A DNA stretch of 64,000 nt. It comes from Lama guanicoe. Lineage: Eukaryota. The stretch spans positions 6,123,977-6,187,976 of the forward strand of contig MU056146.1 of assembly GCA_013239625.1 (NCBI GenBank), given 5' to 3'. Under the pieces are notes generated by a model, which saw nothing but the letters and a program-made list of their open reading frames with translations, did no database searches and was not told where the DNA came from. Position numbers and translations under genes: made by a program. Shown piece after piece: positions 26,880-29,114 of the stretch (the stretch's first letter is position 1; each line of letters opens with the position of its first letter).

Positions 26880-27002
26880 TCACACCACAGAGGACGAGCT
26901 GGTCATGCCGTGAACCATCGTGCTTGTTGGAGTCCCACTGATGGCGTTGAAGATGTGCAGGGAATTCGGTAAAACGCTCGTCTTCTCCTCCAGGGGGCAA
27001 AT
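26880..27002 (-). CDS. DOCK9: DOCK9 terminal coding exon (ICPLEEKTSVLPNSLHIFNAISGTPTSTMVHGMTSSSSVV*)
   Basis: ccttgag|ATT; TGA at 26882-26880; lies within ORF 26880..27074. Confidence 0.95.
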   Translation of the reverse strand: MCPLEEKTSVLPNSLHIFNAISGTPTSTMVHGMTSSSSVV

Positions 27003-28061
27003 CTCAAGGCACAGAAACACAACGTTACCGAAGCATAATGCCCTGAATGATACTCCTTGTAACTTATCATCCACTGGCCAATGTCACGTGAATGATGGTG
27101 CCCTCAGATAGCTCTGGGTCTGGCAGTTTGCAGAGGGAATGTGTCAGCTCATCTAATAAATGCCTTTTTCAGATCAGGACTTTAAAAAGAAAGTCAAGAA
27201 CAACATGTTTTGTTTCCTTTACAAGTTAGGGAATGGAGAGCCTTTCACACTCACCAGATTATAAGGCACCTTGAAGTCTCTCCTACACATACTTGATGGG
27301 GACACGACCTGGCCATGTCCCTTGGGAAAGTCTTTTTTAAATGAATCTGGAGCATCTGTGTTCTCTACTAGATCCTTTTCTCAGGGTCTTACAGATTCTT
27401 ACAGGTCTTTCCATCCTAGGAGAGACAGAGGGGCTGCCTGTCCAACCCTGAACAAATCTCTCGCACACTCAGTAATGCAGGAAAGAATTCTAAGTGCCAG
27501 ACTGGACCTGTTGCCAGGTGGAAACTGAGAAGAACATGCACACTCAGAGGTTCCCCTGGAAAAACCAAAACCAAGGCTGCTCCAAGTCATGACCCCTTCT
27601 GCTGAAGGGCTCAAATAACTTTAATCTTCATAGTTGTTGAGATTATGGAAAGTTCAGGTGCAATTTAGAGCACAGCACTGCATTGTGTCCATACGATCTG
27701 GGAGTTTATTTGAATACTTTCAGCCCATCATTTTTTTCTACTTTCATCTTTTCCAGTGCCAAATGCTGGCACCCTCTGATCAAGCTCACCATCCTAGAGG
27801 AGTATGGAGGCCCGTAGAAAAGACCTTTCTCCAAAATCTTGTTCCTGTGAGACACTTCCTTTCTGCTCAATTATTCACATATTTATTTCTTTAATCATTT
27901 CCATCTTTTTTCCCTACTTTTCTAAATGCCCAAGAGAGGGCTGCCTTCTTCTGCACATGCACTGTCACTATGCCTAGGTCTGCAGGTGCCCAAACTCAGA
28001 AATAACTTTATGTGAGCCAGTTATCAAGATCCAGAGAAATAAAATTTAAAAATGACATTAC

Positions 28062-28069
28062 CATCCCAT
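28062..28069 (-). CDS. DOCK9: DOCK9 8-nt alternative microexon ATGGGATG (gives ...HEQ-MG-stop)
   Basis: Pyrimidine tract + catgctaacacatgcag|ATGGGATG|gtaatg. Joined to the first A of the last exon it makes TGA. Parallels the recalled human isoform ending EQLG. Confidence 0.85.
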
Positions 28070-28975
28070 CTGCATGTGTTAGCATGGAGGGAAAAAAAAG
28101 CAAGTTAAAGCTGAGACATTTACGTTCGTTTCCTGCAACAGAAACTTCTCAACTAAATCATCACATGTTATGTTAACTGACACAAATGGCCTTGGCTTCC
28201 ATTTTGCAAGAGTGAAGGAAAATAATGTAGGTTTGGAGCAGACAGAAGTAGTTATGTTATCAAGATGCCATCACCAATCATAAAGACTGACACCGTGACT
28301 CGGAAGAGGTCACTGTGGTTGATGAAGAATGGACCCCTCAAAAGCAATAATGGGGAAGCTGCCCTGTGACATTCACCCAGTTGCCTGGGCAGCTGTCGCC
28401 TCTGATGACTGCCGAGCCCACATACATAATCCTACCAGAAGGAATTCACACAGGAGGGCAGTGGGAGCAGTGTAATAAGGAAAGCTGCCCATAAGGACAG
28501 GAATATAGAAGCAGCCTTGAGGAATCCACGGGGGCACTCAGGTCAGCTATGAACAGTCAAAATTGAACAACCTTCCTTTGTTAAATGGCAAAAGACATTT
28601 AATGCAACAGACAATCCCTTAAACCAGGCTGGTAAACCTGGTTTTTTCAAAGGATTGGGTGAATAAAGAAACTTCTAGGAACAGCATTGGTATTTTTTTT
28701 TTTTAATGTGGGTTGTTTCTGAGCTAGACTGAGCCATGAAGAAGAGGAGGGGGCTGCTGTCTTCTGGTCACATTAAACAATGACAGGTGGGCAAGCTACT
28801 AGCCAGTCCCTAGGCACCTGTGGGTAGAAAGTAGCAGCAGTGTAGCATGCTACATTATTCATCAGAGAGCAAAATTCTGGAAGGATGTCAGAGGGCGTAG
28901 GCCGTAAGAGGGTTCACCTGAGACCCAACTGATGCATGCTGTCTAAAATGAGAAGACCCCCAGTGTGGCACTTAC

Positions 28976-29114
28976 CTGCTCATGCATGATTTCCGAAAGC
29001 TCTTTTGCCATTTCCTTGTAGTTGGCCTTCATTTCTTCCTGGTACTCTAACTGGTCCTCTTTGATTAACCGTTCATTTACCGCCAAGGCTTGCCCGCAAG
29101 CTTCCACAAATTGT
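28976..29114 (-). CDS. DOCK9: DOCK9 coding exon ([47 protein letters not shown])
   Basis: tttcag|A ... CAG|gtaagt; 139 nt. Confidence 0.96.

What the first reader, a model, noticed from the sequence alone, without database searches (positions are those of the whole stretch)
28055..28110. 8-nt microexon that assembles a split stop codon and switches the DOCK9 C-terminus
Seen: on the minus strand a pyrimidine tract, catgctaacacatgcag|ATGGGATG|gtaatg, sits between the ...HEQ exon and the last exon, which starts with A. Inclusion gives ATG GGA TG|A (Met-Gly-stop). Skipping gives a 40-aa tail ending SSVV, a class I PDZ-binding pattern. Because the stop spans the last junction, no junction lies downstream and NMD is not expected. 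Two UGC triplets sit just upstream of the 3' splice site, the SRRM3/4 microexon signature. A TGCATG (RBFOX) lies ~100 nt downstream at 27961-27956. Recalled: a human isoform ends EQLG, so the switch is probably conserved, with Leu>Met here. Inference: a tissue-regulated, probably neural, on/off switch for PDZ anchoring of a Cdc42 GEF.
Basis: partly seen in the sequence, partly recalled or inferred. Interest (0 to 1): 0.75.

Follow-up and report, generated by a model that had tools for sequence, protein, structure and literature searches.

The report
Neuronal microexon deletes DOCK9's ancient tail
An eight-letter optional exon, already catalogued as a nerve-cell splice event in mouse, human and zebrafish, sits in this mammal's DOCK9 gene and would end the protein right after its enzyme domain, removing an ancient tail that is likely a binding tag; the sister gene DOCK11 carries a matching exon predicted to do the same.

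Summary
The 8-nt exon (28069-28062, minus) lies in DOCK9's last intron. Inclusion reads HEQ-M-G-stop; skipping gives a 40-aa tail. The mouse exon has the identical sequence and is annotated and neuronal. The likely human orthologue goes from PSI 0 to 97.6 with SRRM4; zebrafish dock9a/b have srrm3/4-dependent 8-nt neural exons. This scan noted it before in a shark. No reads were laid here. Corrections: Met is the wider-spread residue, so 'Leu>Met here' is probably backwards. The RBFOX role is untested. PDZ binding is unshown, and the last residue is Ala in 27 of 63 distinct tails. Additions: DOCK11 in this genome has an 18-nt candidate microexon in the same intron reading HEQ-L-stop, and a human 18-nt DOCK11 exon switches 0 to 97.4 with SRRM4. 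The deleted tail is predicted disordered. It holds an invariant HIFNAISGT motif plus S-x-[VAL], a pairing also seen in protostome zizimins. Known exon, open function.

The parts
28976..29114 (-). Penultimate constitutive DOCK9 coding exon (139 nt; end of DHR2 lobe C, ...ELSEIMHEQ), donor CAG|GTAAGT
   Evidence: 98% identical to DOCK9 proteins
28070..28110 (-). Microexon 3' splice region: pyrimidine tract, UGC at -33, -15 and -5, CTAAC at -13, TTAAC at -39, 39-nt AG-free zone
   Evidence: these features match the eMIC-target description in PMC8797185 (passage)
28062..28069 (-). 8-nt microexon ATGGGATG (Met-Gly plus TG of the split TGA stop)
   Evidence: identical to mouse chr14_-_121544575_121544583, annotated, cluster Neuronal N1; human HsaEX0020667
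28056..28061 (-). Microexon 5' splice site GTAATG; if it is unused the reading is M-G-W-stop
   Evidence: a vole RefSeq model ends EQLGW
27956..27961 (-). TGCATG (RBFOX consensus, recalled), 101 nt downstream; role untested
   Evidence: 18 such sites on this strand of the window
26880..27002 (-). Coding part of the last exon: 40-aa tail (NSLHIFNAISGT ... SSVV) when the microexon is skipped; 3' UTR when it is included. Acceptor is GAG
   Evidence: tail conservation; predicted disordered in a database orthologue

Best explanation
This is the known 8-nt DOCK9 microexon, which SRRM3/4 likely switch on in this species' neurons as in mouse, human and zebrafish, and whose inclusion would end DOCK9 two residues after the last helix of its catalytic DHR2 domain, deleting a 40-residue tail that is predicted to be disordered and likely acts as a binding tag. 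Shown: the sequence and the two reading outcomes; neural and SRRM3/4-dependent inclusion of the orthologues (published tables); an intact catalytic domain in the short form (2WM9). Inferred: the mRNA escapes NMD because no junction lies downstream of the stop. The tail is likely a two-part linear motif (hydrophobic-F-x-x-I-S-G, then a terminal S/T-x-A/V) that tethers DOCK9 to a partner in non-neural cells, possibly a PDZ domain that tolerates Ala at the end. Neurons and endocrine cells would then release the Cdc42 GEF from that partner without changing its chemistry. DOCK11 likely uses the same switch in the same intron.
For: Mouse exon: identical 8-mer, annotated, 1613 reads, mean vertebrate conservation 3.57, cluster Neuronal N1, not differential in skeletal muscle, heart or adrenal. 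Human HsaEX0020667 (8 nt): PSI 0 with GFP and 97.6 with SRRM4 in HEK293; neural dPSI 65.9. Zebrafish dock9b 8 nt: PSI 63.4 neural, 55.0 endocrine pancreas, 0-6 in the nine other tissue groups with values; dPSI -41.8 in srrm3/4 mutants; dock9a also has an 8-nt neural exon, dPSI -69.6. Short C-termini in 11 of 523 DOCK9-search proteins: MG 7, LG 3, LGW 1, including mouse cDNA BAC32480 and PDB 2WM9. AlphaFold2 of a database DHR2-plus-tail protein: mean pLDDT 90.9, last helix ends at 447, tail 458-490 under 50. 63 distinct vertebrate tails picked without using the motif: HIFNAISGT and Ser at -2 invariant in 63 of 63. The motif plus S/T-x-A end occurs in Anopheles, mite and nemertean zizimins; 21 of 28 deep relatives with the motif end S/T-x-[AVL] against 15 of 121 without. 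DOCK11: 18-nt candidate in the homologous intron, frame 0 L-stop, UGC at -16, -19 and -32, donor GTAATG; human DOCK11 HsaEX0020546 is 18 nt, PSI 0 to 97.4; zebrafish dock11 has a 12-nt neural exon.
Against: No RNA reads were laid for this species, so inclusion here is inferred from orthology. No partner of the tail is known from my searches. The terminal residue is Ala in 27 of 63 tails, and the two bony-fish-like DOCK11-type tails end in LG with no such motif. The deep-relative motif regex was written after looking at the sequences, and the 28 include at least one false hit. One protein search had the tail in its query, which biases towards conserved tails. Bird, platypus and koala short forms are computational gene models. 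Orthology of the human event rests on length, gene and exon order plus the published zebrafish pairing, not on a sequence I saw. In zebrafish most single microexon deletions had no phenotype (PMC12626424, passage), and a review notes no EAE phenotype for DOCK9 knockout mice (PMC8063744, passage).
Confidence: 0.62

Rival explanations
1. One reading: the switch acts only through the last four residues, a class I PDZ ligand (SSVV) that anchors DOCK9 to a PDZ scaffold.
For: Ser at -2 is invariant in 63 of 63 tails and the last residue is always V, A or L. Paralogues end SAEV (DOCK10) and AAEI (DOCK11) in this genome. Protostome relatives end SSTA, SSLA, STFA. SynGAP is a precedent for splicing a PDZ ligand on and off.
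Against: Ala, not V/L/I, ends 27 of 63 tails, including marsupials, monotremes, birds, most reptiles and frog. The internal HIFNAISGT motif is more conserved than the last residue. DOCK9 was not found in a PDZ affinity-map supplement (one file was cut when stored), and no paper in the listings reports a PDZ partner.
Confidence: 0.3
2. The tail is an intramolecular regulator: it docks on another part of full-length DOCK9 (ARM, DHR1/DHR3 or the dimer partner), and its loss changes autoinhibition or GEF output in neurons.
For: The motif is invariant and hydrophobic. DOCK9 autoinhibition between the N-terminal half and DHR2 is reported (PMC13663769, passage). A low-confidence first model placed a helix on the motif (pLDDT under 50).
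Against: In the confident model the tail does not dock on its own DHR2 monomer. Full-length and dimer contexts were not modelled.
Confidence: 0.2
3. The exon mainly tunes mRNA or protein amount (NMD, 3' UTR change or a C-terminal degron: the short form ends in Gly) rather than binding partners.
For: A non-3n exon that introduces an early stop. Gly-ending C-termini can be degrons (recalled, not tested).
Against: The stop spans the last junction, so no downstream exon junction exists and the 3' UTR grows by only about 120 nt. Inclusion reaches PSI about 98 in steady-state RNA. A comparable penultimate frameshifting microexon in Cltc escapes NMD and makes protein (PMC13676984, passages). The DOCK11 form would end in Leu, not Gly.
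Confidence: 0.1
4. The site is a chance or dead splice pattern in this species and is not used.
For: The pattern appears 0.4 times per 63 kb of shuffled sequence. No reads from this species were seen.
Against: The 8-mer is identical to the annotated mouse exon, at the same relative position in the same intron, with both splice sites intact.
Confidence: 0.03

Closest known systems
DOCK9 8-nt microexon: mouse chr14_-_121544575_121544583 (ENSMUST00000040700; PMC7821500 supplementary file 2), human VastDB HsaEX0020667 (PMC7935315 S4 Data), zebrafish DreEX0028047 and DreEX0028031 (PMC12626424 supplementary file 1)
   Same: Same gene and length. The mouse 8-mer is identical and lies in the matching intron (1382 and 950 nt from its flanks; 906 and 1059 nt here). 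The human short protein ends EQLG (2WM9).
   Different: Only the species. The tables give inclusion values; none of my searches found a paper on what the lost tail does.
DOCK11 neural microexon HsaEX0020546 (18 nt) / DreEX0027937 (12 nt)
   Same: SRRM4 switch 0 to 97.4. The 18-nt candidate in this genome lies in the homologous last intron in phase 0, with the same GTAATG donor, and would truncate right after HEQ.
   Different: It is 18 nt with an internal stop (L-stop) rather than 8 nt with a split stop, and the sequences do not align, so common origin versus parallel gain is open. Matching it to the human event rests on length and recalled gene coordinates.
Cltc microexon 33 (PMC13676984, passages)
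   Same: A penultimate non-3n microexon that replaces a roughly 40-aa C-terminus, escapes NMD and yields protein.
   Different: Cltc exon 33 is 38 nt, skeletal-muscle- and rodent-specific. The DOCK9 exon is 8 nt, neural/endocrine and conserved to fish.
SynGAP alpha1/alpha2/beta/gamma C-terminal splicing (bioRxiv 10.1101/2020.01.28.922013, passages)
   Same: C-terminal splicing adds or removes a terminal ligand on a small-GTPase regulator in neurons.
   Different: SynGAP's QTRV-PSD-95 binding is proven and favours synapses. For DOCK9 no partner is known, and the neuronal form is the one that lacks the tail.
DOCK9 6-nt microexon HsaEX0020668 (listed in PMC8627023, table row)
   Same: Same gene, neural, SRRM3/4-dependent.
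   Different: An in-frame Ala-Ala insert inside DHR2 (window 39649-39644); a separate event from this finding.

Membership tests
SRRM3/4 (eMIC)-dependent neural microexons | Length 3-27 nt with canonical AG/GT flanks | tested here: met
   8 nt, CAG|...|GTAATG
SRRM3/4 (eMIC)-dependent neural microexons | UGC near the 3' splice site, long pyrimidine tract and AG exclusion zone | tested here: met
   UGC at -15, -5 and -33; AG-free zone 39 nt; features as described in PMC8797185
SRRM3/4 (eMIC)-dependent neural microexons | Neural-enriched inclusion | tested here: met
   Met for orthologues in published tables: mouse Neuronal N1, human dPSI 65.9, zebrafish PSI 63.4. Not measured in this species
SRRM3/4 (eMIC)-dependent neural microexons | Dependence on SRRM3/4 | tested here: met
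   Met for orthologues: human PSI 0 to 97.6 on SRRM4 expression; zebrafish dPSI -41.8 in mutants. Not measured in this species
SRRM3/4 (eMIC)-dependent neural microexons | Junction reads in this species | not tested
   No reads were laid on this locus; runs holding the exonic parts exist
Class I PDZ-binding motif (x-S/T-x-hydrophobic-COOH) | Ser/Thr at position -2 | tested here: met
   Ser in 63 of 63 distinct tails
Class I PDZ-binding motif (x-S/T-x-hydrophobic-COOH) | Conserved V/L/I at position 0 | tested here: inconclusive
   V in this species; across vertebrates V 32, A 27, L 4 of 63
Class I PDZ-binding motif (x-S/T-x-hydrophobic-COOH) | Located in an accessible disordered C-terminus | tested here: met
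   Predicted only: pLDDT under 50 for residues 458-490 of a 490-aa orthologue model
Class I PDZ-binding motif (x-S/T-x-hydrophobic-COOH) | Measured binding to a PDZ domain | not testable with these tools
   No report found
RBFOX-activated exons | Conserved downstream UGCAUG with RBFOX-dependent inclusion | tested here: inconclusive
   One site at +101, about 6% by chance; intron conservation and dependence not tested; none downstream of the DOCK11 candidate
Poison (NMD-inducing) exons | Stop more than 50-55 nt upstream of the last exon junction | tested here: not met
   The stop spans the last junction; in DOCK11 it is 12 nt upstream

The most novel reading that the evidence does not exclude
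DOCK9 and DOCK11 share one SRRM3/4-driven programme, possibly older than their duplication, that strips the same bilaterian-old C-terminal binding module (hydrophobic-F-x-x-I-S-G plus terminal S/T-x-A/V) from Cdc42 GEFs in neurons and endocrine cells. The module binds an unidentified conserved partner, and the crystallised human DOCK9 construct (2WM9) has the neuronal, tail-less end rather than the one most tissues make.
Probability: 0.4. Interest if true: 0.62.

Novelty: already known. Interest (0 to 1): 0.36.

Why it matters
The exon is in published tables, so finding it again is ordinary. What is worth a specialist's time is the consequence. Two paralogous Cdc42 activators appear to lose the same ancient tail in neurons through switch-like microexons in the same intron, and my searches found no paper on what that tail binds. 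This makes a clean experiment: long versus short DOCK9/DOCK11. It also warns that work built on the EQLG-ending human sequence (as in PDB 2WM9) has the neuronal end, while HEK293 cells show PSI 0; whether published expression clones share that end was not checked.

Tried and rejected
RNA evidence from this species: 24 runs were listed, but none was laid, so they are no evidence either way. First fold (27 close sequences) was too poor to use (pLDDT 47); the second, with 65 of the diverse sequences, was good. No complex was predicted: the monomer model already showed no docking on DHR2, and no PDZ partner is known to test. My first tail tally selected tails by the motif itself; I redid it with a motif-independent filter. 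'Last exon starts with A because the stop needs it' was rejected: DOCK10 and DOCK11 last exons also start with Ile codons. DOCK10's last intron: no candidate in the strict scan; 14 loose AG..GT patterns, 2 with UGC, none convincing, and DOCK10 is absent from both tables. No DOCK11 short-form protein was among the 679 proteins held, but no search was aimed at DOCK11. Text searches: DOCK9+microexon gave 3 papers, none describing this exon in the two I opened (the third not opened). DOCK11+microexon gave 0. DOCK9+GIPC gave 8 unrelated titles, listing only; GIPC as a candidate partner is from recall. 'dock9' was absent from the one held supplement of PMC12868881 and from PMC9482650's six (one cut). 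HsaEX0020667 is not in the TCGA tumour-versus-normal list. Irimia 2014 is not held. Seven of 19 supplements of PMC7935315 were not searched, and bioRxiv supplements are closed; these may hold more on this exon.

Full report
Observation. On the minus strand the window holds the 3' third of DOCK9, a mammalian Cdc42 GEF; tblastn places 15 matching stretches between 61848 and 26901. The last intron runs from 28975 to 27003. Inside it, ATGGGATG (28069-28062) is flanked by ...tgcag and gtaatg. Joined in frame it gives HEQ-M-G-stop with TG|A across the last junction; skipping gives a 40-residue tail ending SSVV. UGC triplets sit at -33, -15 and -5 (the last is the acceptor itself), the AG-free zone is 39 nt, and TGCATG is at +101. 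The splice pattern alone is weak evidence: one hit in the window, 0.4 expected per 63 kb in 60 shuffles. No RNA reads were laid on this locus, so use in this species is inferred, not seen.

It is a known exon. PMC7821500 supplementary file 2 lists chr14_-_121544575_121544583, sequence ATGGGATG, annotated, 1613 reads, cluster Neuronal N1, differential in brain regions but not in skeletal muscle, heart or adrenal (supplement row seen). PMC7935315 S4 Data lists DOCK9 HsaEX0020667, 8 nt, PSI 0 with GFP and 97.6 with SRRM4 in HEK293 (passages and rows seen). PMC12626424 pairs it with zebrafish dock9b DreEX0028047: 8 nt, PSI 63.4 neural, 55.0 endocrine pancreas, 0-6 in nine other tissue groups, dPSI -41.8 in srrm3/4 mutants, human neural dPSI 65.9. 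It lists an 8-nt neural exon in dock9a too (passages and rows seen). I did not see the human exon's sequence; orthology rests on gene, length, exon order and the EQLG end of PDB 2WM9. The DOCK9 microexon listed in PMC8627023 (table row) is a different, 6-nt exon, found here at 39649-39644. The Nova2-regulated Dock9 exons 37a/37b in PMC4633719 (passages) were not mapped to the window. PMC7551865 (passages) treats only first-exon isoforms.

Protein evidence. Of 523 proteins from three DOCK9 searches and two cluster look-ups, 408 have the long tail, 11 the short end (MG 7, LG 3, LGW 1), 69 other ends and 35 no anchor. Named short forms: mouse cDNA BAC32480, mole-rat, platypus, cormorant and eagle (MG); human 2WM9 and koala (LG); vole (LGW, the reading expected if the downstream intron is kept). 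Several of these are computational gene models, and cluster representatives favour long forms, so 11 of 523 is no measure of abundance.

What is deleted. An AlphaFold2 model of a database DHR2-plus-tail orthologue (65 sequences, mean pLDDT 90.9) ends its last helix at residue 447, just before HEQ; residues 458-490 are under 50 and undocked. The exon thus cuts exactly at the domain boundary, and the short form is the one crystallised with Cdc42 (PMC8063744, passages). Among 63 distinct vertebrate tails chosen without using the motif (from 406 of 523 proteins), HIFNAISGT and Ser at -2 are invariant, while the last residue is V 32, A 27, L 4. A profile search over 50%-identity representatives returned 149 new proteins. 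28 have a related motif in their last 60 residues, and 21 of these end S/T-x-[AVL], against 15 of the other 121 (regex written after inspection, at least one false hit). Named carriers include Anopheles, Tubulanus, Tetranychus, Oppia and Sarcoptes; in mites the motif and the terminal SSLA/STFA are adjacent. So the tail is an old two-part module. That a free C-terminal S/T-x-A/V is kept fits a carboxylate-binding partner such as an Ala-tolerant PDZ domain (GIPC-type ligands are recalled to look like this). It does not show it, and the internal motif is at least as likely to matter. No DOCK9 tail partner turned up or 71 (listings; one supplement set).

The paralogue. In this genome DOCK11's last intron (GC-AG donor after ...IIHEQ) holds an 18-nt candidate exon 153 nt before the last exon, with a pyrimidine tract, UGC at -16, -19 and -32 and the same GTAATG donor. 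In frame it reads L-stop, 12 nt before the last junction. It is the only one of six 18-nt AG..GT patterns in that intron with such a context. The published tables list human DOCK11 HsaEX0020546, 18 nt, PSI 0 to 97.4 with SRRM4, and a 12-nt neural zebrafish dock11 exon. Equating them with my candidate rests on length and recalled coordinates. DOCK10 shows no good candidate. A text search for DOCK11 with microexon found 0 papers. The two exons do not align, so shared ancestry and parallel gain are both open. Either way the outcome matches: truncation right after HEQ. This makes the split stop an incidental way to reach that end.

Mechanism. Shown: geometry, reading frames, regulation of orthologues. 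Inferred: SRRM3/4 in neurons and endocrine cells promote inclusion through the UGC/pyrimidine region (features as in PMC8797185, passage). The mRNA escapes NMD, as shown for the analogous Cltc exon 33 (PMC13676984, passages). The protein keeps DHR2 and loses its tail, and so likely loses a partner that positions or restrains it elsewhere. DOCK9's GEF activity supports dendrite growth in hippocampal neurons (PMC3922786, passage). The DOCK11 cryo-EM paper (passages and section 5) says nothing on the tail in what I read. Against a large effect: most single microexon deletions in zebrafish gave no phenotype.

Verdict. The feature is real and correctly described, and the neural/SRRM4 guess is borne out, but by data already in print, and this scan had noted it once before. 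The PDZ claim remains a hypothesis. The DOCK11 parallel and the age of the tail module are the parts I did not find in print. Novelty: already known. Interest 0.36.

Noticed in passing
G000 C5263:977164-977147 (minus); L006: DOCK11 last intron: 18-nt candidate microexon reading HEQ-L-stop, with UGC motifs and a GTAATG donor; likely the orthologue of human HsaEX0020546 (SRRM4 PSI 0 to 97.4). The intron's upstream donor is GC rather than GT.
   Followed up: partly
window 39649-39644 (minus): The known in-frame 6-nt DOCK9 microexon GCAGCG (Ala-Ala) behind a long U-rich tract and an AAG acceptor. The 36-nt SRRM4-responsive exon that follows it in human (HsaEX0020665) was not found in the readable part of this intron.
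   Followed up: partly
window 27005-27003 (minus): The DOCK9 last exon uses an uncommon GAG acceptor; DOCK10's last exon uses AAG. A weak downstream acceptor may affect splicing order around the microexon.
   Followed up: no
window 28069-28058 (minus): If the microexon's donor is not used, the reading is M-G-W-stop; a vole RefSeq model ends EQLGW, and an AATAAA lies at 27887-27882, so a third, intron-retaining or alternative-last-exon form may exist.
   Followed up: no
L006 (DOCK11 last exon): DOCK11 in this genome ends ...PRYAAEI, whereas the human end is recalled as YAEV; DOCK10 ends SAEV.
   Followed up: no
PMC12626424 table, dock9b 8-nt exon: Inclusion in endocrine pancreas (PSI 55) is nearly as high as in neural tissue (63), unlike the 6-nt exon of the same gene (18.5), so the tail-less form is not neuron-only.
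   Followed up: no
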